Below are positions 3,529 through 56,211 of a stretch of 64,000 bases of DNA, piece after piece (within the stretch, counting starts at the first letter, position 1; each line of letters begins with the position of its first letter). The notes under the pieces were generated by a model, which saw nothing but the letters and a program-made list of their open reading frames with translations, was not told the origin of the DNA and ran no database searches. The stretch is taken from assembly GCA_016181845.1 (NCBI GenBank), contig JACOYO010000003.1:16185-80184 (forward strand). Direction: 5' to 3'. The position numbers and the translations under genes were made by a program. The stretch comes from Parcubacteria group bacterium (GTDB lineage Bacteria > Patescibacteriota > Minisyncoccia > Phycocordibacterales > 21-14-all-47-15).

Positions 3529-4506
3529 TTAAGAAGAATGAGTATCCAGGTTTCGTTCAAACTCATGTAATCGTTTCCAGATACTCCGCAATTCGGTAAT
3601 CGTTGTCCAATTATGGATAAACAGCGCAAGGCTTCCGTGTACTTGGGAAAAAGCATTTGAGACTTGAATCAAGACTCCAAGCGTAATAACACCGGTAAAC
3701 AATCCGGGTGCCATGATAAGATACGGCACAATGACCATGCATTGGTCATAGGTATTCAACCAAATGTCAAAATACCCATAATGCAAAAAGAGACGCTGAT
3801 AATTAAACCGAATTCCGGCAAATAATTCTTTCAGAATCGGCAGAGAAGCATGTTCAATTTTATTGTCCTCGCCATACACCAATTCTTTGCGAAACGCCGC
3901 CTCCACTTTTTGATTATTGTATTCAAGCCCCGGCAATTTAATACCGACAAACCAAGAAATAATCATTCCACCAACACTCACCAGAAGCGCCGCCCAGACG
4001 AGCGACCCGGGGATGTCCTTGATAATCGGCAAATCGACGCCATGTCCCAATTTCCACAAAACCGGAAGAAAAGCGATGAGGGTCATGAGCGCTCGTATCA
4101 CTTGCAGACCGAGCGATTCCACAATGCGCGCAAACCGATAGGTGTCTTCTTGGATACGCTGACTCGCTCCTTCAATCTCTGCCGCCACATTTCGCCAACG
4201 CGGAATATAATCAAACGTTATTGCCTCGCGCCAACGCAATGAATAGAGACGGGTAAAATAAGCAGTTATGGTTGCTAGAAGGACATAGGGCATTGCAATA
4301 GAAAGAAACGTTCTTATACTTTTCCAAAATTCAGACAAAGAATGTTCCGTCGCTTTTTGCAACATGTCATAAAATCCACCGTACCAATCATTTATCAGCA
4401 CAGACATGTGCACTTGCGCGTAGAGAGAACAAAATAAAAATACGCCGCCACCATATGCCCAAAACATCCATTTTTTGTTTAGGAAAAAGGCTCGTATCAT
4501 GAGCAT
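3529..4506 (-). CDS. polytopic membrane protein, SbmA/BacA-like (putative peptide/antibiotic uptake permease)
   Basis: 325 aa with multiple TM segments. The ...RIQEDTYRFARIVE... and ...QVSNAFSQVHGSLALFIHNWTTITELRSIWKRL... regions resemble the SbmA_BacA family. Called from memory, not searched. Confidence 0.4.
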   Translation of the reverse strand: MLMIRAFFLNKKWMFWAYGGGVFLFCSLYAQVHMSVLINDWYGGFYDMLQKATEHSLSEFWKSIRTFLSIAMPYVLLATITAYFTRLYSLRWREAITFDYIPRWRNVAAEIEGASQRIQEDTYRFARIVESLGLQVIRALMTLIAFLPVLWKLGHGVDLPIIKDIPGSLVWAALLVSVGGMIISWFVGIKLPGLEYNNQKVEAAFRKELVYGEDNKIEHASLPILKELFAGIRFNYQRLFLHYGYFDIWLNTYDQCMVIVPYLIMAPGLFTGVITLGVLIQVSNAFSQVHGSLALFIHNWTTITELRSIWKRLHEFERNLDTHSS

Positions 4507-8727: not shown

Positions 8728-9441
8728 TCAAAATTGTTTTTGAACCGTAAAACCTGATGTTTTCAAATAATCAGGACATGGGAAATGCGCTCTAACGGTT
8801 ACTAGAGCTGTGTTTATATTTCCTTCCTGAATAATAAAATACGACCTTTCAACTTGTGTGGATTTAAGCATCATTGACAATTTCATTTCCATCATACTTT
8901 TTGTAGGTACGCTGATTTCAATAAATCCGGATTTTTTCGGCACAACAGAAAACATCGGCTTTCCGTTCAATAATTTTTGAAACTCGCTTAAAACACTGAC
9001 TCCCGGGGAAAACACGTGTTCAAACTTGGCAACAGATCCAACGCACATATTAATTAAAAACTGTTCTCGCGCTTGGAAAGCTTGCACATAATAGGCGAGC
9101 ATTTTTATTTCTGAACGGTTTAAATCTCCTTCAAATGACGGCATAACACCCGACTTCCCGTGGCGAATCACATCTTCTATGGCTCCTTGGTCGCCAAGCA
9201 GGTGTCTCATTTCATTATAATCGGTAAAATTACGCGGCTTCACAGCCAAACTTTTTGCAATCTCACCGTTTCCGTCTCCATATACCCCGTGGCAAAACAT
9301 ACACCGTTCTTGATAAAGACGCCCGACTTGTCTCATCGCTTCGTCGTCAAGATTCGTTGATTCAACCAACGCAGTTTGCAAAGAAATTAAGACGAAAACA
9401 CTTATAGCAACGATGCCACACAACACCACGCGATACTTCAT
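8728..9441 (-). CDS. secreted mono-haem c-type cytochrome (class I) with a C-terminal domain of unknown function
   Basis: Start moved to MKYRVVLCGIVAISVFVL (GGAGG 5 nt upstream). CMFCHG is a CxxCH haem-binding motif; a Met ligand candidate sits in GVMPSF. Confidence 0.65.
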   Translation of the reverse strand: MKYRVVLCGIVAISVFVLISLQTALVESTNLDDEAMRQVGRLYQERCMFCHGVYGDGNGEIAKSLAVKPRNFTDYNEMRHLLGDQGAIEDVIRHGKSGVMPSFEGDLNRSEIKMLAYYVQAFQAREQFLINMCVGSVAKFEHVFSPGVSVLSEFQKLLNGKPMFSVVPKKSGFIEISVPTKSMMEMKLSMMLKSTQVERSYFIIQEGNINTALVTVRAHFPCPDYLKTSGFTVQKQF

Positions 9442-40960: not shown

Positions 40961-40989
40961 TTCACTTAGTGGTTGAACCACTAAGTGAA
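40961..40989. repeat. R2 palindrome copy (ttcacttagtgg-ttgaa-ccactaagtgaa)
   Basis: 29 bp; related copies at 13590-13616, 46733-46755 and 49951-49976. Confidence 0.6.
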
Positions 40990-41008
40990 CATAACAAAGG
41001 AGCCGCGT

Positions 41009-41860
41009 ATGAATGAGCCCGTTTCAAAAAAAGACCCTTCTTTTGAAATTACGTTATTTACAGCAATGGACCAAACCGGAAGAATGAGAAACTCGCAAGA
41101 GTCGGACCGACCACTTTGGGATAATAACCCGGAGATTATTAAGGAGCTCAATCGGATTGCTTTTAGAAAAATCATATTGATGGGAAGAAAAACATACGAA
41201 CTCCTCCTGCACGACGCGACCAAGCATGTTTTTTTAAATGACGCGGCGATTATTTTCGTTCTCACAAAAAAGCGCGGCGATGAACTTATTAAAAAAGAGC
41301 ACACCTCACACGTGTATGCTATTAATGCGCTTGAAGGTATAAGAAATTTTTGGTGGTTATTGGAAGAAGCATTTGAGGAAAAAAGGAGACAAAAAATAAC
41401 AGCGTGCCGCAAAGTACAAAATGACTGGAGAAAGAAACCGGAAACGACTGGCACAAAAGAAAACTCCGAATCGCCGATGTCTAATCCAAAAGATAAAGAA
41501 CTGGTTGAACAACTAGAAAAAACAATAGATAGTATAGAGCAAGAAAAAATCCCAATCCAACCGGAAATTGTGGTGCTTGGAGGCGTTAGTTTGTATCAAG
41601 AAATGATTGATTATGCCACTGCTATCTATGCATTTCTGATTCATGCTGAATTTACCGGCGAAGAAAAATTCCCTCTCTTTTTCAATGAGCAAGACTGGGA
41701 AATTAAAGGGGAGATGGACTCTAAAGAAAAAGATTCCAACGGATATCCCCTTTTTACGTCAATAACATATCGGCGAAAAGCCCAGCCAGAAAAACATCTG
41801 CCTTTTTTCAGGCCGGATTTGCCTCCTTTGCCTGTGGAAAAAGAAAAATCAAAAAAATGA
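41009..41860 (+). CDS. dihydrofolate-reductase-fold protein with an approximately 80-aa Lys/Glu-rich insertion
   Basis: Start at MNEPVSKK (AAAGGAG upstream). The N-terminal half has ...LFTAMDQTGRMRN...PLW...ILMGRKTYELL...; the C-terminal half has ...IVVLGGVSLYQEMIDYATAIYAFLIHAEFTGEEKFP...DWE, which matches the DHFR pattern. Confidence 0.55.
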   Translation: MNEPVSKKDPSFEITLFTAMDQTGRMRNSQESDRPLWDNNPEIIKELNRIAFRKIILMGRKTYELLLHDATKHVFLNDAAIIFVLTKKRGDELIKKEHTSHVYAINALEGIRNFWWLLEEAFEEKRRQKITACRKVQNDWRKKPETTGTKENSESPMSNPKDKELVEQLEKTIDSIEQEKIPIQPEIVVLGGVSLYQEMIDYATAIYAFLIHAEFTGEEKFPLFFNEQDWEIKGEMDSKEKDSNGYPLFTSITYRRKAQPEKHLPFFRPDLPPLPVEKEKSKK

Positions 41861-43207: not shown

Positions 43208-44032
43208 TTAAAACAAGGTCTCTTTTTTTATGTCATCCTTTTTTTCTTTTGTCTGATTGGCTATTTTTTGGCGCGCGTCAAGCTGGGCATCACGCGCCGC
43301 TTCACGATACCTGCAATAATCGCAGTCTGCGCTCTGCGCTGGGACCGCGCCATCGTCAAGCGCTTTTTTTGCATGCGTAAGCGTTTTTTCAATCCACCCG
43401 TCGTCGCCGGTATAAGGGATAAGCTTCACGTCAAACTCAAGCTTCCCGTCAAAAGCTTCTTTGTCTGTACTGCCATTGCAATATACAAAATAGCCCGTGC
43501 TTGAAACTTGGAAGCCATTGCGCCGAAGAAGCCATTGATAAAATTCCATTTGTCTTTTATATCCGATTTGCCAATCTGCGTCTAAACTTACCTCGCCGTC
43601 TTTTGATGTCGCTTTGTAATCAACGACGATGAGCTCGCCCTCTGGATTAACCCAAATATCATCAACGCCTCCTGTCACCAAAAAATTGGTCGGCTCGTGC
43701 AGATAGGTTACCCCGCCGCGAAGCGAATCGCGCCATTCATTCATTTTTGAGTGCTGGAAAGGAACAGCGTCAACACCATATTGCTTCATCAGCGGATGAG
43801 CGCTTCCTTTCGCGCGGTGCGCGTCAAATTCTTTTTTCAAAAGCGCGTCAACGGCGGAATTGAGTGAAAATGGAAATCCTGGCGGCCGCGCCACGCCAAG
43901 ACGGCGGTCAAGATAAAAACATTTCGGACATTCCAAAAATAAATCAACTTTTGAACGTGAGAGACGAAACGGCTCTTTTGATTCCGGAATATACAGATTT
44001 CTTATCCGTTTTGGATTGTAATATTGAGACAT
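43208..44032 (-). CDS. stand-alone PD-(D/E)XK nuclease with Cas4/RecB-like cysteine cluster
   Basis: N-terminal CPKCF and C-terminal CDYCRY give four Cys, as for the Cas4-type Fe-S cluster. Core D...EL.VVDYK (D/ExK). Confidence 0.6.
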   Translation of the reverse strand: MSQYYNPKRIRNLYIPESKEPFRLSRSKVDLFLECPKCFYLDRRLGVARPPGFPFSLNSAVDALLKKEFDAHRAKGSAHPLMKQYGVDAVPFQHSKMNEWRDSLRGGVTYLHEPTNFLVTGGVDDIWVNPEGELIVVDYKATSKDGEVSLDADWQIGYKRQMEFYQWLLRRNGFQVSSTGYFVYCNGSTDKEAFDGKLEFDVKLIPYTGDDGWIEKTLTHAKKALDDGAVPAQSADCDYCRYREAARDAQLDARQKIANQTKEKKDDIKKETLF

Positions 44033-44105: not shown

Positions 44106-46037
44106 TTAATGCGCAATCAGCTGGTTGGCAATCATGAATATATTGCCGAGCAATGACGCGCTTTTGGCATTTGATTGCGGCGCTTCGGATGGAGGTGGCG
44201 GAGCAATACTGCCGTCTAAAGGAGCGGTAAATCCTGTTGGTTCCGTTTGTGGCGGAGGTGGCGCTATCTGTTGCTGTTCTTGCTGGAGCATCATTCCGCT
44301 ATCTATTGGTTGTATGATTGGCATTATTGAAGTGCGCTCTCCTTCCTGAAAACCTTGTTCTGTTTGCGGCATTTGCGGTATAAATTTTTCCCCTTCTATT
44401 CTCATCATATTGTCGTCTCCCATCATCGGTCTTTCAAAAGATTGCCGGTCGTCAAATTTCTGCTCGCCTTCAAAAATCCGCTGTTGTACATCGCGCTGAA
44501 ATTCTTCAGGATTCTTAAAATGTTCCAATGACGGCATCCCTTCGCGCACGCATCGCTCAATCGTCCCGCCGATGTCAGACGGCGCGCGACTGCTATCAAG
44601 CGCCCCTTTCACGCAATCACGCGCGGATTCCGGCACAGCATTGAGATTAAAATGTTCTTGAAATCCTTTTTTGATTTCGCGCTCGCGAATATTCCTCTCA
44701 TCATCTTTTCCTTTCATCATTCCATTCTCTCCATGCTCAAAGCCGCCATTAAAATCTTCCAGCATATTGCCTTGCATGTCTCTGAAATCGCCTCGCGGTT
44801 GCTCGCCGCTGAATTGTTCAAAACATCCGCGTATTTCTGACTCCGCTTTTTGGCGTTCTTCTTGAGACATCTTGCCCATATTTTGCAATCCTTCTTTGCC
44901 GATGCGTTCAGTAACGCAAGATTCCACCTCCGGAGGCATGTTTCCCATAAACCCGCCTTCACCATTTTCAGGTCCTCCCATTCCGCCGAATTGTTCAAAA
45001 CATTTTTGCGCGGTGTCGCCAATATTTTTTCCTGGCATCTTGGTGCCGGCGCGAATGCCTTCAATCACGTCAGACCCGAGAGCGTCTTTTAAGCATTGCG
45101 ACACTGGAGCAGGCGCTTCATCAAGCATTTTTCTAAATTCTCCGACATGGCGGTTAATATTTTCAAGCTCATCTGGAGGTATCAGCCCATGCTCTTGCGC
45201 AAACGCAAAACAGGCATCCTGATGCGCGGGGTCTTCGCAATATGTTTGACATTCTTCGCGCTTACAGCCACCGGGGCCTTTGCCACCCGTTTTCCTAGCC
45301 ATTTCAGCGTCTTTTGCAGAAACAAATCCCGCTTTTTCACCAAAAGCAAGACATTCTTCAAAATGAGAGTCGTCGTTGCAGTATGCTTCACATTCTTTTT
45401 TGCCTTTGCATCCGCCCGGCATTTGTCCGCTCTTCATAAGGGGGGCGATACGCCTTGCTTCCGCAAGTTCTTCGGGAGGAATAAATCCGGCTTTTTCAGC
45501 AAACGCCAAACACTCATCTATGTGCGCGCCGTCTTCACAATATGCCTGACATTCTTTTTTCCCCTTACAACCCCCGGGCGGCACCGCGCCGTCTTTCAGC
45601 GCTTTTGCCACTTGTTTTGCTTCTTTTAATTCATCGGGCGGAATAAGACCGTGTTTTTCTCCAAACGCGACGCACTCTTCAATATGCGCCACATCTTCGC
45701 AATACGTATCGCAAGCCCCCTTTGAAGCACAGCCGCCAGGCCCGCTTGTTTCTCCAAGTTGCGCGAATTTCTTTGCCTCCCGTAATTCATCTGGCGGAAT
45801 TAAATTATATTTTTCTGCAAAAGAAAGACATGCATTGACATGCGACAAATCGTCACAATACGCACGGCACGCTTTTTCGTCCTTACAATCCCCCAATTCT
45901 GAAACCGGAAATACGATGTCTTGTGCCGTAAGCGCCTGCGCGGAAGAAACGCCAACTGCTCCGATGCCGACAATAACCGCTATAAAAAAAATCGCGTATC
46001 TCGTAAAAAGAAAAATATTTTTGTGCCGCATAAACAA
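44106..46037 (-). CDS. secreted protein with five tandem 4-Cys modules (about 49 aa each) and a long acidic, Gly/Met/Gln-rich, Pro-terminated tail
   Basis: Signal peptide ...GAVGVSSAQA. The repeat consensus is approximately GGCKGKKEC.AYCEDxxHI.EC.AFAEK.G.IPPDEL.EA, with C-x5-6-C-x3-C-x8-C spacing. Confidence 0.55.
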   Translation of the reverse strand: MFMRHKNIFLFTRYAIFFIAVIVGIGAVGVSSAQALTAQDIVFPVSELGDCKDEKACRAYCDDLSHVNACLSFAEKYNLIPPDELREAKKFAQLGETSGPGGCASKGACDTYCEDVAHIEECVAFGEKHGLIPPDELKEAKQVAKALKDGAVPPGGCKGKKECQAYCEDGAHIDECLAFAEKAGFIPPEELAEARRIAPLMKSGQMPGGCKGKKECEAYCNDDSHFEECLAFGEKAGFVSAKDAEMARKTGGKGPGGCKREECQTYCEDPAHQDACFAFAQEHGLIPPDELENINRHVGEFRKMLDEAPAPVSQCLKDALGSDVIEGIRAGTKMPGKNIGDTAQKCFEQFGGMGGPENGEGGFMGNMPPEVESCVTERIGKEGLQNMGKMSQEERQKAESEIRGCFEQFSGEQPRGDFRDMQGNMLEDFNGGFEHGENGMMKGKDDERNIREREIKKGFQEHFNLNAVPESARDCVKGALDSSRAPSDIGGTIERCVREGMPSLEHFKNPEEFQRDVQQRIFEGEQKFDDRQSFERPMMGDDNMMRIEGEKFIPQMPQTEQGFQEGERTSIMPIIQPIDSGMMLQQEQQQIAPPPPQTEPTGFTAPLDGSIAPPPPSEAPQSNAKSASLLGNIFMIANQLIAH

Positions 46038-46081
46038 AATAAAAAACTGTTAAAAAAGCGAAGATGTATTCTTCGCCGCTG

Positions 46082-46351
46082 TTAATTGCCGAAAGGATTT
46101 TTATATCCCTTAAACGGGTTGGTCGTGTTCCCTGCTCCGAAAGGGTTGGTATCCGGAATTTTACCACCAACATCTTCAGCCGGATTTGAAACGTTTGACA
46201 CATTCTCCAGCGCTTTCCCAACATCAACCACATCGCTTTCTGTCGCCGGAGCAATGCTCTTTTTGTTCCAAAGAAACCATCCTGCAAGTATGATAATAAT
46301 GACCGCAACCACTATGACCAATGGTGAATATATATTTTGTTTCTCTTCCAT
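46082..46351 (-). CDS. small N-terminally anchored protein with NPF repeats
   Basis: 89 aa; TM helix LVIVVAVIIIILAGWFLW followed by ...NPFGAGNTTNPFKGYKNPFGN. Confidence 0.35.
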   Translation of the reverse strand: MEEKQNIYSPLVIVVAVIIIILAGWFLWNKKSIAPATESDVVDVGKALENVSNVSNPAEDVGGKIPDTNPFGAGNTTNPFKGYKNPFGN

Positions 46352-46703
46352 ATTATATTTAGTATAGCAAGACGGTTTTTCTATTCAAGAAAAAGTTATG
46401 CACATGAGCCACACTCAAAACTCCAATTGCAAAAAAGCCCCGCGAAAGGGCTTTAGAATGTGTCTGTCTATGATACCTGTCACCAGCAGAAAGCGTGGGG
46501 ATTTTAATCCTGTGTACGCAGAGAATTATCCCCGCTTTCTGCCGGTGAATGTCCGGCAAAAAATAACCTTATTCTTTATTCTTATTTGGGAACACCAGTT
46601 TTATATTGTATCATAACTCATTCACTCCACAAGTGCATAACTTGTAAATTCAAGAATACATGACTCTTACAAAGTCATACAAATGGTAGCGCTTTGTAGA
46701 TGG

Positions 46704-47260: not shown

Positions 47261-47980
47261 TTAAAACAAGCTTTTGGGAGGCGAGTTTTTCCTTTCCCAT
47301 GTAACCCGCAAAAGGTCATATTTATTTTCTTTATTCGCGGGATATTCCTGATAGTTATTTGGATTCTGCTTCCAGTGGACGCTGTCAATCGGCGGCAAAA
47401 TCGTATCCCCGGAAAAATTCTCACAAATTAAAAACATATATATTCTATCGGCATAATCAAGAATCCGTCGATAGAGAAGGCGGCCTCCTATAGCCACTAT
47501 TTCTTTTTCAAGACGCGGTTCTGTCTCCACTTTATATAGTTGTTTTGGGGACAATTTTTTCTCCTTAATCAGCTTTTGTCTTTGCAACTCAATATTTTTC
47601 TCGTCATTCTCATGTTTTGCTTCCTCCAACCGGTGCGTAGAGTGCCATATATTCCTCACTTTGCCGAGCGACCGCACAACTTGAACGGGATAATTTTCTG
47701 GCGGGCTGAAATTTTTATTCTTCGTCAGAATAAAACACGAGTGTCTTTTTTTGTCTGTAAGAATGTATCTGCCGTAATCGTAATTGCTAAATGCCTGAAA
47801 TGTGGTTGGTCCCATAACAACACATTTATCTCGCGTGAGAGATTCTAATTGTCTGAATACTTCCGGCATATCCTCTGCCCAAGGATACCTGTCTCCACTC
47901 CTCGTATGCCCGCCCATTTCTTGAAATATGCAAAAGCTGACTTTGAATGGATCTGTGCGCGAAGCATCGCTTGTTTGCAT
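47261..47980 (-). CDS. second dihydrofolate-reductase-fold paralog with a Lys/Glu-rich coiled-coil-like insertion
   Basis: Start moved to MQTSDAS (GGAGG upstream). ...KVSFCIFQEMGGHTRSGDRYPW...VVMGPTTFQAF... and ...IVAIGGRLLYRRILDYADRIYMFLI...FSGDTILPP..D...W. Confidence 0.55.
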   Translation of the reverse strand: MQTSDASRTDPFKVSFCIFQEMGGHTRSGDRYPWAEDMPEVFRQLESLTRDKCVVMGPTTFQAFSNYDYGRYILTDKKRHSCFILTKNKNFSPPENYPVQVVRSLGKVRNIWHSTHRLEEAKHENDEKNIELQRQKLIKEKKLSPKQLYKVETEPRLEKEIVAIGGRLLYRRILDYADRIYMFLICENFSGDTILPPIDSVHWKQNPNNYQEYPANKENKYDLLRVTWERKNSPPKSLF

Positions 47981-48210
47981 GACAAAACCTCCGCAGATAA
48001 TGATTGGAATGTGTGCGTATGTCAACGTACTTCCCTTTTTATGCACTATACGCCTCCATGAGACATTTATAAAGGTTCTTAAAGGTTCCTCTTGGCAAAC
48101 CCGCGAAGAACATAATGCGCGCCGTAACCGTACTTTACAAACAGCATAGGAAAGCACAACATAAAAGACAGAAAGCATTATTTGATAATTATATAATGGA
48201 GGATTTTGCC

Positions 48211-54477: not shown

Positions 54478-56211
54478 TTGCGAAAAATTTTTAACGCCGT
54501 TGCTTTGTATTGCTATATTCTTTTTCTATCGTCAGAAGCTCAAGCCTTCATTAAACAAAAAGAAATAGCGCTCACGTTTGATGACGAGATACGCTCTGCC
54601 CTCTTTTTTGGCAATGGCGGCCTATCGGAAACCTTAAAAGAAAATGACGCGCATGCGACTTTTTTTGTTTTGGGCTATCAGGTAAAGTCTTCTCCGGAAC
54701 TTTTCAAAACTCTCACGGCCCAAGGACATGAGATTGAAAATCACACATGGGGGCATGAAAATCTTTCCAAACTGGTAACACAGGGGGGTGTTGAAGTCGC
54801 GTTAAAAAACATTGAGAAGACGTCGTCTGAAATTCTATCTGTAACAGGACGCCGGCCAACTTTTTTACGCCCGCCGTATTGGGCGATGCCGAAAGATTTG
54901 AAAGTGGCTCTCGAAAAAACCGGCTATCGGGTGATGATGATTGGAAGTCCTGATATCAATACGCTCGATTATGAAGATGCCGACAAGAAGCGCCCGTCAT
55001 CAGTGCTTGCATCGCGAGTGATAAAAATAATAACCAAACGAGAAACGCACGGCACCTATCGGCATGTCTTGGTATTTCACCAGACGCCACAAACGAGAGA
55101 TACGTTAAGAGAAATTCTTCCGATACTTCGGCGGCAAGGATACAGTTTTGTCACGCTTCAAAAGTTTTTTACTCTTCCCGAAAAAGCGGCACAAGAAATA
55201 GATATTTTTGTTCAATATGTTTCTCTCGCAAAACCTCCACTCATTTCAGAAATACCGGTGCGCGCGCTTTATTTGAGCATTGATAACCTCTCGAACAAAA
55301 AGAAAATCGCTTCCATTGAGCGTATTCTTGAAACAACCGATGCGAATGCCTTGGTTATTGATTTCAAAATTGACGCGATTGCACCTGAAAAAATAATTCG
55401 TGGACTCTTAGCGCAATTCAAAAAATCAAAGATGTATCTGATCGCAAGAATCAGTGTCATGCAAGATTCCCGCTTCGCGCGACGCAATCCAGGCGTAGCG
55501 TTACATCGGCCGGATGGCAGCCTTTGGTGGAGCGGACGAAAAGAATGGGGGCGATACTGGGTAGACCCGGCAAGTCCAGAAGTTTTGGCCTACGCCATTG
55601 AGGTCGCGAAGCGCGCGGTAGACCTTGGATTTGATGAAATCAATTTTGATTACATCCGCTTCCCCACTGACGGCGACCTCCGTTCAATCGTGTATCCGAT
55701 TTATAATCCGAACACGGCAACAAAATCGTCAGTCATGAATCGTTTTTCGAGCGAACTCACGAAGGCATTGAGGTCCTACCGCCCGCATATCAAACTTTCC
55801 ATTGACCTTTTCGGCGAAGTAGTCGCGTTTGGTCATGAAAAAGAAATCGGACAAGAACTTTCTGGAGCCGCGACATATTTTGACGTCGTCGCTCCGATGG
55901 CATATCCGTCTCATTATCGCTGTGGCGAGTTCGGATTAAAAGACCCGACCGCGCACCCGTACCTGGTGTATATAAAAACGCTTGCTCCGGCAAAAAAATT
56001 TCTTGCAAAAAACTATCCAAAGGTAATTATTCGTCCTTGGATTCAGGCGTTTAGCATACCGAGCATTTATCGGTGCGGCCCTTACGTACCCTACGGACCT
56101 GAAAAGATACGAGAGCAAATTCAAGCAGGCATGGACCTTGATATTTCCTCCTTTATGCTCTGGAATGCCGGAAGTATTTACTCACCGCAATACTTTCTGG
56201 CAAAACAATAA
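54478..56211 (+). CDS. PgaB/IcaB-like polysaccharide deacetylase (CE4 NodB domain) with a C-terminal glycoside-hydrolase-like domain
   Basis: TTG start behind AAGGAGG. CE4 motifs LTFDDE and NHTWGHE; the C-terminal ~300 aa resemble the PgaB C-terminal (GH-like/DUF4015-type) domain. Confidence 0.6.
   Translation: MRKIFNAVALYCYILFLSSEAQAFIKQKEIALTFDDEIRSALFFGNGGLSETLKENDAHATFFVLGYQVKSSPELFKTLTAQGHEIENHTWGHENLSKLVTQGGVEVALKNIEKTSSEILSVTGRRPTFLRPPYWAMPKDLKVALEKTGYRVMMIGSPDINTLDYEDADKKRPSSVLASRVIKIITKRETHGTYRHVLVFHQTPQTRDTLREILPILRRQGYSFVTLQKFFTLPEKAAQEIDIFVQYVSLAKPPLISEIPVRALYLSIDNLSNKKKIASIERILETTDANALVIDFKIDAIAPEKIIRGLLAQFKKSKMYLIARISVMQDSRFARRNPGVALHRPDGSLWWSGRKEWGRYWVDPASPEVLAYAIEVAKRAVDLGFDEINFDYIRFPTDGDLRSIVYPIYNPNTATKSSVMNRFSSELTKALRSYRPHIKLSIDLFGEVVAFGHEKEIGQELSGAATYFDVVAPMAYPSHYRCGEFGLKDPTAHPYLVYIKTLAPAKKFLAKNYPKVIIRPWIQAFSIPSIYRCGPYVPYGPEKIREQIQAGMDLDISSFMLWNAGSIYSPQYFLAKQ

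What the first reader, a model, noticed from the sequence alone, without database searches (positions are those of the whole stretch)
44106..46351. Secreted protein with five tandem about 49-aa modules, each with a C-x5-6-C-x3-C-x8-C pattern, plus a long acidic low-complexity tail and a small NPF-repeat membrane protein downstream
The repeat (consensus around GGCKGKKECxAYCEDxxHIxECLAFAEKxGxIPPDELxEA) does not resemble any cysteine-rich domain I know. Four Cys per module suggests either two disulfides or a metal site. The tail (MGGPENGEGGFMGN...PPPPQTEP...APPPPSEAP) looks like a cell-surface spacer. Together with the adjacent N-anchored NPF-repeat protein, this may form a surface or adhesion apparatus. 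Such apparatuses are plausible for an episymbiotic small-genome bacterium.
Basis: partly seen in the sequence, partly recalled or inferred. Interest (0 to 1): 0.6.

Follow-up and report, generated by a model that had tools for sequence, protein, structure and literature searches.

The report
Conserved secreted cysteine-repeat protein with NPF partner
This is a real, Sec-exported protein built from five copies of an undescribed four-cysteine, three-helix module, always encoded next to a tiny membrane protein ending in NPF motifs; the gene pair is conserved across Parcubacteria and also occurs in DPANN archaea, and its function is unknown.

Summary
The repeat is real. There are five modules of 48-54 aa, each C-x5(4)-C-x3-C-x8-C, with 36-56% pairwise identity.

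The small NPF protein lies upstream on the minus strand, not downstream.

No described family matches. Pfam, NCBIfam, PDB sequence and profile searches, and Foldseek against the PDB all found nothing.

The protein is not an orphan. About 1,760 clusters at 50% identity exist, nearly all labelled Parcubacteria/Paceibacteria, with 4-10 or more modules each. Every locus with readable upstream sequence carries the small TM + NPF gene directly upstream. No other neighbour recurs.

Four loci with archaeal marker genes (DPANN) carry the same two-gene cassette.

AlphaFold2 predicts three helices per module with high confidence.

Best reading: an extracytoplasmic, probably disulfide-stapled helical rod. 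It would be held at the cell surface by a disordered Pro/Gln/Glu spacer plus an amphipathic C-terminal helix, and would work with the NPF-tailed membrane partner. Some relatives add lectin-like or Kazal domains.

Disulfide versus metal site, and NPF docking, remain untested. Function is inferred only.

The parts
46361..46388 (-). Promoter-like site (TTGAAT-16-TATACT with an upstream TG), just upstream of the partner gene's ATG
   Evidence: Consensus scan and sequence reading. This is a pattern match only.
46082..46351 (-). Partner gene of 89 aa. It has a short N-terminus, one transmembrane helix, a linker, and a C-terminal tail with NP motifs (NPA..TNPF..TNPF..YKNPFGN).
   Evidence: ORF. Homologous small genes lie directly upstream of the large gene in all other loci. 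No Pfam or NCBIfam family matches above cutoff.
46057..46077 (-). Terminator-like hairpin plus T-run in the 44-50 nt gap between the partner gene and the large gene
   Evidence: In most other loci the two genes are only 0-30 nt apart or overlap, so this hairpin is not a conserved feature.
44106..46037 (-). Large gene: 643 aa from the TTG start, or 641 aa from the ATG at 46031. It encodes the cysteine-repeat protein.
   Evidence: 100% identity to the Parcubacteria protein HYT28_01475.
45933..46037 (-). Signal peptide (aa 1-35, ending ...VSSAQA|LT). It is Sec-type with no twin-arginine motif.
   Evidence: Sequence. In the family, 239/260 members have an N-terminal hydrophobic run and 6/260 have a Tat-like RR motif.
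45750..45917 (-). Module 1 (aa 41-96), including the family-wide N-terminal motif DIVFPVSELGDC
   Evidence: The motif (Y/F)P(V/I)xEL(G/A/N)xC is present in 236/263 relatives.
45588..45749 (-). Module 2 (aa 97-150)
45429..45587 (-). Module 3 (aa 151-203)
45285..45428 (-). Module 4 (aa 204-251), ending in the conserved ARKTGGKGPGG linker
45138..45284 (-). Module 5 (aa 252-300), with C-x4-C-x3-C-x8-C spacing
44532..45122 (-). Three two-Cys helical units (aa 306-352, 365-411, 466-502), separated by Gly/Glu/Met-rich disordered loops
   Evidence: pLDDT is 80-95 for the units and below 50 for the loops.
44157..44465 (-). Disordered Pro/Gln/Glu/Met-rich spacer (aa 525-627)
   Evidence: pLDDT is below 50. 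In the family, Pro is enriched at positions -30 to -23 from the C-terminus.
44109..44156 (-). C-terminal amphipathic helix SLLGNIFMIANQLIAH (aa 628-643)
   Evidence: Predicted helix at aa 630-642. The window tail has a hydrophobic moment of 0.34. Across 193 family tails the mean is 0.366 against 0.226 for shuffles, p=3e-27. It is too short for a membrane span, and LPxTG is absent.

Best explanation
The two genes form a conserved cassette that most likely makes an extracytoplasmic, cell-surface protein pair.

**Large protein.** It is exported by the Sec pathway. After signal-peptide cleavage it folds into a row of small three-helix modules. In each module:
- C1 sits in a Gly-rich loop;
- C2 and C3 lie one turn apart on a short first helix;
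- C4 lies on the second helix.

I infer that the four Cys form two structural disulfides per module, and that the three downstream units each carry one. This would give a protease- and heat-resistant rod.

**Attachment.** A disordered Pro/Gln/Glu-rich spacer and a terminal amphipathic helix would keep the C-terminal end at the membrane surface. This is the layout of Gram-positive wall-spanning surface proteins, but without a sortase signal.

**Partner.** The co-transcribed small protein is a single-pass membrane protein. Its outside tail ends in one to five NP(F/L/Y) motifs. I infer that these short motifs dock onto the helical modules and so tie or organise the rod on the cell surface.

**Role.** The role would be structural or adhesive at the envelope of ultra-small symbiotic cells.

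**Shown:** the anatomy, predicted fold, export signal, family size, gene pairing, and occurrence in both bacteria and archaea.

**Inferred:** disulfides, surface retention, NPF-module docking, and the biological role.
For: **Anatomy and fold**
- Five 4-Cys modules and three 2-Cys units.
- AlphaFold2 gives pLDDT above 90 for aa 40-350, with three helices per module. The two-module model has pLDDT 88 and pTM 0.72.

**Export**
- A Sec-type signal is present in 239/260 relatives. A Tat-like motif is present in 6/260.

**Pointers towards disulfides**
- Two-Cys units cannot form a Cys4 metal site on their own.
- The Cys count is even in 117/120 relatives.
- All four Cys are kept in 822/826 modules.
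- The only His-rich position is His 51% / Asn 45%, so it is not a fixed ligand.
- CPR genomes are reported to be enriched in MdbA-like thiol-disulfide oxidoreductases, often next to VKOR (bioRxiv 10.1101/335083).

**Pointers towards an extracellular binding role**
- Some relatives carry ConA-like Laminin_G_3 or Kazal domains.

**C-terminal layout**
- A Pro-rich stretch is followed by a 14-16 aa amphipathic helix that often ends in R/K or F.

**Pairing with the partner**
- The partner is upstream on the same strand, usually 0-30 nt away. This holds in 72/83 loci by a strict test and in all remaining loci that have upstream sequence by inspection.
- The partner is the only recurrent neighbour. 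The next gene family occurs in 6 of 84 loci.
- The cassette, including a C-terminal LNPF motif, is kept in four archaeal loci.
Against: - No experiment or structure exists for any member.
- I could not read model coordinates, so Cys-Cys distances and disulfide pairing are unknown.
- The C1/C2/C3/C4 geometry (loop, i and i+4 on one helix, neighbouring helix) would also suit a tetrahedral metal site.
- Many of these organisms live in anoxic groundwater.
- No MdbA or VKOR gene lies in this 64-kb window.
- NPF-module docking is pure inference. The number of NP motifs barely tracks the number of modules (rho 0.20, p 0.08).
- Partner topology rests only on a weak positive-inside bias: +0.94 before the TM against +0.30 after it.
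- About 40% of listed relatives lack a hydrophobic C-terminus. Some of these are fragments.
Confidence: 0.5

Rival explanations
1. Each four-Cys module is a metal site (Zn, Fe, Cu or a small Fe-S cluster). The protein would then be an extracellular metal-binding, metal-storage or redox protein with 5-10 sites in a row.
For: - All four Cys are essentially invariant (822/826 modules).
- C2 and C3 sit i/i+4 on one helix, C4 sits on the next helix, and C1 sits on a flexible Gly-rich loop. These four could converge on one point.
- Many hosts of this family are anaerobes, where disulfides are less favoured.
Against: - The signal peptides are Sec-type, not Tat-type (6/260 Tat-like). Pre-folded Fe-S proteins normally need Tat.
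- The same proteins carry units with only two Cys.
- The His position is replaced by Asn in 45% of modules.
- No match to any metal-binding family in Pfam or the PDB.
- CPR genomes are reported to have MdbA/VKOR-type disulfide machinery.
Confidence: 0.17
2. The large protein is a released effector aimed at the host cell or at competitors, for example a binder or inhibitor. The small membrane protein would be a dedicated escort, release factor or protective factor rather than an anchor.
For: - Small disulfide-rich secreted repeats are common in effectors and inhibitors.
- Some relatives carry Kazal-type inhibitor or lectin-like domains.
- A tight two-gene cassette fits an effector plus accessory-protein pair.
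- The cassette occurs in two unrelated lineages of ultra-small symbionts.
Against: - Position-specific first and last modules are strongly conserved. This looks like a housekeeping structure, not a fast-evolving effector.
- The C-terminal spacer plus amphipathic helix suggests retention at the cell.
- No toxin or enzyme domain is present in the window protein.
Confidence: 0.15
3. The Cys pattern is a chance feature of a spurious or fast-decaying ORF.
For: None beyond the absence of any annotation.
Against: - More than 1,500 homologues exist, with E-values down to 1e-259.
- 1,759 clusters at 50% identity match the module profile.
- Predicted structure is high-confidence.
- A shuffle test argues against chance.
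Confidence: 0.01

Closest known systems
Helicobacter cysteine-rich proteins (HcpB/HcpC; Sel1-like repeat family). Comparison from my own knowledge.
   Same: Both are Sec-exported bacterial proteins made of tandem alpha-helical repeats, with each repeat stapled by disulfide bonding between helices.
   Different: - Hcp repeats are about 36 aa, have two helices and one disulfide, and match Pfam Sel1.
- Here the module is about 52 aa, with three helices and four Cys.
- There is no Sel1 or any other Pfam hit and no Foldseek match to any PDB chain.
Gram-positive wall-anchored surface proteins (signal peptide, repeats, Pro-rich wall-spanning region, LPXTG sorting signal). Comparison from my own knowledge.
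   Same: The order of parts is the same: signal peptide, tandem repeats, a disordered Pro-rich spacer, and a hydrophobic C-terminal end that often finishes in a basic residue.
   Different: - LPxTG is absent (1/358).
- There is no membrane-length hydrophobic stretch (2/358).
- The end is a 14-16 aa amphipathic helix.
Eukaryotic NPF-motif / EH-domain recognition (Eps15-homology domains binding Asn-Pro-Phe peptides). Comparison from my own knowledge.
   Same: Repeated NPF tripeptides sit in a disordered tail, next to a helical protein that could read them.
   Different: - No EH or EF-hand domain is detectable.
- The setting is outside the cell in prokaryotes.
- Binding is untested.
- This is an analogy only.
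Twin Cx3C / Cx9C (CHCH) helix-hairpin proteins of the mitochondrial intermembrane space. Comparison from my own knowledge.
   Same: Cys residues spaced i/i+4 on a helix are cross-linked to a neighbouring element, giving a small disulfide-stapled helical fold.
   Different: - Here only one helix carries a CxxxC. The other two Cys are in a loop and on helix 2.
- The spacing is C-x5-C-x3-C-x8-C.
- There is no CHCH Pfam hit.
C-terminal amphipathic-helix membrane anchors, such as E. coli PBP5/DacA. Comparison from my own knowledge.
   Same: A short terminal amphipathic helix follows a flexible linker and could lie in the plane of the membrane.
   Different: There is no sequence relationship, and membrane binding has not been tested here.

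Membership tests
Any described protein domain family (Pfam-A 2025, NCBIfam r20) | A profile-HMM match at or near the curated cutoff | tested here: not met
   No family matches at E<=1 for the 643-aa protein in Pfam or NCBIfam.
Any protein of solved structure | Sequence or fold similarity to a PDB chain | tested here: not met
   - phmmer and a two-module profile against the PDB gave no hit at E<=10.
- Foldseek against the PDB gave a best E of 0.5 for the full model and 1.4 for the two-module model (TM 0.28).
Defensin-like (Pfam AtDEF-like PF25052) and ADAM10 Cys-rich (PF21299), both flagged for a few homologues | A match above the gathering score and a cysteine-stabilised fold of that family | tested here: not met
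   - The window protein has no hit.
- Homologues score 14-27 bits against a cutoff of 25, mostly without an independent domain hit.
- The predicted fold is all-alpha.
- These are Cys-pattern noise.
Sel1-like repeat / Helicobacter cysteine-rich proteins | A Sel1 (PF08238) repeat match, with about 36-aa helix pairs | tested here: not met
   There is no Pfam hit. The repeat is about 52 aa with three helices.
Sortase-anchored (LPXTG) surface proteins | An LPXTG motif, then a membrane-spanning hydrophobic segment, then a basic tail | tested here: not met
   An LPxTG-like motif is present in 1/358 relatives. A hydrophobic run of at least 18 aa at the C-terminus is present in 2/358.
Tat-exported cofactor (Fe-S) proteins | A twin-arginine motif in the signal peptide | tested here: not met
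   RRxhh is present in 6/260 relatives and absent in the window protein.
The uncharacterised Paceibacteria/DPANN family itself (defined here) | - a signal peptide;
- the (Y/F)P(V/I)xELGxC first module;
- at least four C-x4-6-C-x3-C-x6-9-C modules;
- a KTGGKGPGG linker before the last module;
- a small TM + C-terminal NPF gene directly upstream. | tested here: met
   All of these features are present in the window and across the family.
EH-domain / NPF recognition system | An EH (EF-hand pair) domain that binds NPF peptides | tested here: not met
   NPF motifs are present in the partner, but no EH or EF-hand match exists in the large protein. Binding cannot be tested with these tools.

The most novel reading that the evidence does not exclude
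The cassette may be a two-part surface device specific to ultra-small symbionts, one that has moved as a unit between CPR bacteria and DPANN archaea. In it, a membrane protein would present C-terminal NPF peptides that are read by a new class of disulfide-stapled (or metal-loaded) three-helix modules. That would be a prokaryotic, extracellular counterpart of short-motif/repeat-domain recognition. The device would build or position an envelope or attachment structure needed for the episymbiotic way of life.
Probability: 0.15. Interest if true: 0.8.

Novelty: new variant of a known kind. Interest (0 to 1): 0.6.

Why it matters
- Parcubacteria/Paceibacteria and DPANN archaea are very abundant, almost wholly uncultured, and thought to live attached to other cells. 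Almost nothing is known about the proteins on their surfaces.
- This work defines a widespread two-gene cassette (about 1,760 clusters at 50% identity; at least 239 species genomes). It contains a new, confidently predicted domain and an obligatory small partner, and it is shared across the two domains of life.
- The cassette is a concrete, testable candidate for an envelope or attachment component.
- It could serve as a marker for gene exchange between the two radiations.
- It would give protein databases a clean new domain family.
- If the modules turn out to bind metals or NPF peptides, that would be a new biochemical principle.

Tried and rejected
- **TRF on the DNA:** no tandem repeat, so the modules are old duplications.
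- **Pfam, NCBIfam and PDB searches:** nothing by sequence or profile.
- **Foldseek against the PDB, with both models:** only generic helical noise.
- **Disulfide pairing from modules that lost Cys in pairs:** failed, because 822/826 modules keep all four Cys.
- **NP-motif number against module number:** weak and not significant (rho 0.20, p 0.08; not corrected for phylogeny).
- **A third conserved gene:** none found; the best candidate occurs in 6/84 loci.
- **MdbA/DsbA/VKOR genes in the window:** none found.
- **Defensin-like, ADAM10, SHOCT, HepT and SPP1 flags on some homologues:** sub-threshold or low-complexity matches.
- **First genome scan with the full-length alignment:** failed because the alignment had no conserved stretch. 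A trimmed alignment of the last module worked.
- **Literature searches:** four searches found no description of this family.
- **tRNA and Rfam scans near the locus:** nothing found.
Full report
**What is in the sequence**

On the minus strand, an ORF of 643 aa runs from a TTG at 46037 to 44106. An ATG at 46031 gives 641 aa. That product is 100% identical to a deposited 'hypothetical protein HYT28_01475' of a Parcubacteria-group bacterium.

The protein has 26 Cys. Twenty of them form five modules, whose first Cys are at aa 51, 103, 157, 210 and 258. Four modules are C-x5-C-x3-C-x8-C and the fifth is C-x4-C-x3-C-x8-C. They are spaced 48-54 aa apart. Pairwise module identity is 36-56%, mean 46%. 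In 20,000 shuffles of the same composition, even one match to the pattern occurred only 75 times. The DNA shows no tandem repeat, so the duplications are old.

Only aa 525-627 are truly low-complexity (Pro/Gln/Glu/Met). The last 16 aa, SLLGNIFMIANQLIAH, are hydrophobic.

The N-terminus is a Sec-type signal peptide ending in AQA.

The 89-aa ORF at 46082-46351 is on the same strand and therefore upstream, not downstream. It has one transmembrane helix and a tail with NPA, TNPF, TNPF and YKNPFGN.

A promoter-like site lies just before the small gene. A terminator-like hairpin lies in the gap between the two genes. Both are pattern matches only.

**Is the module a known domain?**

No.
- Pfam-A and NCBIfam give no family at E<=1.
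- phmmer of the whole protein and an HMM of a two-module alignment find nothing in PDB sequences at E<=10.
- AlphaFold2 with 120 homologues gives pLDDT above 90 for aa 40-350.
- A two-module model gives pLDDT 88 and pTM 0.72.

Each module is predicted as a Gly-rich loop carrying C1, a short helix carrying C2 and C3 one turn apart, a second helix carrying C4, and a third helix (PPEEL...).

A few homologues carry precomputed flags such as defensin-like, ADAM10 Cys-rich, SHOCT or HepT. On re-scan these are at or below threshold and mostly lack an independent domain hit. I treat them as Cys-pattern or low-complexity noise.

**How widespread is it?**

- A word-indexed search of 5.8 billion proteins returned 1,516 hits among the 8,000 candidates scored. 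Every name given by a source is 'hypothetical' apart from three function-like labels that I take to be spurious (a 'YppG family protein', a YutE/DUF86 label and a bare marker), and every organism named is Parcubacteria/Patescibacteria (Lloyd-, Wildermuth-, Wolfe-, Jorgensen-, Sung-, Lipton-, Yanofsky-, Staskawicz-bacteria and others).
- An exhaustive HMM search of 1.84 billion cluster representatives with the two-module profile found 1,759 proteins at E<=1e-3 and 961 at E<=1e-30. The family is sizeable but sharply bounded.
- Two strict peptide patterns hit 239 of the GTDB species genomes.
- Module number ranges from 4 to 10 among listed members, with up to 13 matched stretches in one protein.
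- The four Cys are kept in 822 of 826 modules.
- Modules are not interchangeable. The first carries (Y/F)P(V/I)xELGxC right after the signal peptide in 236/263 members. The last is preceded by KTGGKGPGG in 93/120.
- About 57% of members (150/263) end as the window protein does. They have a Pro-rich stretch at -30 to -23, Ser around -22, and then a 14-16 aa hydrophobic segment ending in R/K (46%) or F (15%).
- These tails have a higher helical hydrophobic moment than shuffles (0.366 against 0.226, p=3e-27).
- The tails lack LPxTG (1/358) and lack a membrane-length hydrophobic run (2/358).
- Some longer relatives add a ConA-like Laminin_G_3 domain, at either end, or a Kazal domain. These are typical extracellular parts.

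**The partner gene**

In four distant loci fetched by protein identity, a gene of 81-95 aa lay directly upstream on the same strand.

In 83 loci with a recognisable large gene, a strict test found such a gene in 72. The test required a hydrophobic N-terminus, at least two NP[FYLWM] motifs, and an end within a few hundred nt upstream of the large gene's start (60 nt overlap allowed).

The remaining loci were inspected:
- five more had the gene once NP(I/V/A) motifs were allowed;
- two had it hidden by start-codon choice (L045, L056);
- four were cut by the contig end.

Every locus with upstream sequence therefore has the partner.

The partners have a median length of 87.5 aa and 2-5 NP motifs. 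In 67 of 70 the last motif is NPF within three residues of the C-terminus (alignment). The partners match no Pfam family above cutoff. A profile search finds 418 small Patescibacteria proteins.

All-against-all clustering of 668 neighbouring ORFs shows the partner is the only recurrent neighbour. The next family occurs in 6 of 84 loci. The conserved unit is therefore exactly two genes.

**Archaeal copies**

Two loci from the genome scan carry record titles of DPANN archaea. Their neighbours include ribosomal protein L31e and a Gins51 domain.

Searching with one archaeal protein found a subfamily of at least 15 close, near-full-length relatives. Source names include Pacearchaeota, Nanoarchaeia and 'uncultured archaeon'.

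Two further loci have archaeal neighbours:
- one on a 623-kb contig, next to the large subunit of DNA polymerase D;
- one on a 120-kb contig, with an archaeal-type tRNA deacylase nearby (separated from the cassette only by the small partner gene).

The archaeal protein aligns collinearly with the window protein over aa 15-319 (33% identity, E 4e-51), with the same five modules. Its C-terminal half differs, but it again ends in a low-complexity spacer and an amphipathic segment.

All four archaeal loci have a small upstream gene with one TM helix and a tail ending in (K/Q)LNPFxNxx. This gene overlaps the large gene or lies at most 55 nt away.

Across the two domains, the conserved elements are the membrane anchor with a C-terminal NPF and the four-Cys module array.

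**How it most likely works**

Shown:
- a Sec signal;
- a confidently predicted row of small helical modules;
- a disordered spacer and an amphipathic end;
- an obligatory small membrane partner.

Inferred:

1. *The Cys form disulfides.*
   - Two-Cys units in the same chain cannot make a Cys4 site.
   - The Cys count is even in 117/120 relatives.
   - The one His-rich position is Asn in 45% of modules.
   - Export is by Sec, not Tat.
   - CPR genomes are reported to be enriched in MdbA-like oxidoreductases, often next to VKOR (10.1101/335083).
2. *The C-terminal spacer and amphipathic helix hold the protein at the cell surface.* The layout resembles Gram-positive surface proteins.
3. *The NPF motifs of the partner are docking peptides for the modules.*

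The third step has no direct support beyond co-conservation. Motif number tracks module number only weakly (rho 0.20, p 0.08). Partner topology rests on a small positive-inside bias.

The main rival is a metal site in each module. I cannot exclude it without coordinates or biochemistry. A released-effector reading is also possible.

**Context and limits**

- The surrounding genes are housekeeping and unrelated: UvrB, TGT, FBPase, a PD-(D/E)XK nuclease, MazG, PEBP and DUF378.
- No MdbA or VKOR gene was found in the window.
- Four literature searches found no description of the family.
- Organism labels are those of the records. The many 'uncultured Candidatus Saccharibacteria' titles in one assembly series were not checked.

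**Verdict**

The module is an undescribed domain.

The feature is one member of a large, lineage-restricted family of 'hypothetical proteins'. What I add:
- the obligatory two-gene cassette;
- the full architecture;
- the predicted fold;
- the occurrence in DPANN archaea.

As a kind of thing, it is a new variant of a known kind: a secreted, cysteine-stapled tandem-repeat surface protein with a spacer and an anchor. Function is still inferred.

Noticed in passing
L052:3106-4831, L046:3171-4864, L086:4762-6302, L087:4727-6275: Contigs with archaeal marker genes (L31e, Gins51, DNA polymerase D, archaeal tRNA deacylase) carry the same cassette. It consists of a small TM protein ending in LNPF plus a five-module Cys-repeat protein. 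This points to exchange between CPR bacteria and DPANN archaea.
   Followed up: partly
window 8728-9441 (-): A 237-aa ORF has an N-terminal signal-like segment and a CMFCH haem-binding motif. It matches Cytochrome_CBB3 (E 1e-10). A c-type cytochrome is unexpected in a Parcubacteria genome, since this group is usually described as lacking respiratory chains.
   Followed up: partly
window 47261-48178 (-) and 40985-41860 (+): Two long ORFs (305 and 291 aa) match dihydrofolate reductase only in their C-terminal parts (E 7e-16 and 3e-14). They are either divergent DHFR-like proteins with long N-terminal extensions or have over-called starts.
   Followed up: no
window 46057-46077 (-): A terminator-like hairpin with a T-run sits between the partner gene and the large gene. 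In most other loci the two genes abut or overlap. It could lower expression of the large gene relative to the partner in this organism.
   Followed up: no
window 43208-44032 (-); L001:11641-13329: A PD-(D/E)XK / Cas4-like nuclease gene lies directly downstream of the cassette here. Related genes lie a few kb downstream in a handful of other loci (5 of 84). This is probably local synteny rather than a functional link.
   Followed up: partly
P0265 (partner homologue): One partner homologue carries a precomputed Pfam accession, PF28423.1, which is not in the local Pfam copy. I could not find out what that family is. Only 1 of the 120 listed partners has it.
   Followed up: no
P0161, P0179, P0262, P0174, P0450, L056:2954-6019; P0408, P0409: Some family members fuse the Cys-module array to a ConA-like Laminin_G_3 domain (C-terminal, or N-terminal in P0450) or to a Kazal-type domain. 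Others have unexplained N-terminal extensions of about 180 aa (for example P0065 and L056).
   Followed up: partly
window 3529-4506 (-) and 54478-56211 (+): There is an SbmA/BacA-like transporter (E 3e-128). There is also a polysaccharide-deacetylase + DUF4015 fusion next to a family-2 glycosyltransferase. These are envelope- and uptake-related genes elsewhere in the window.
   Followed up: no
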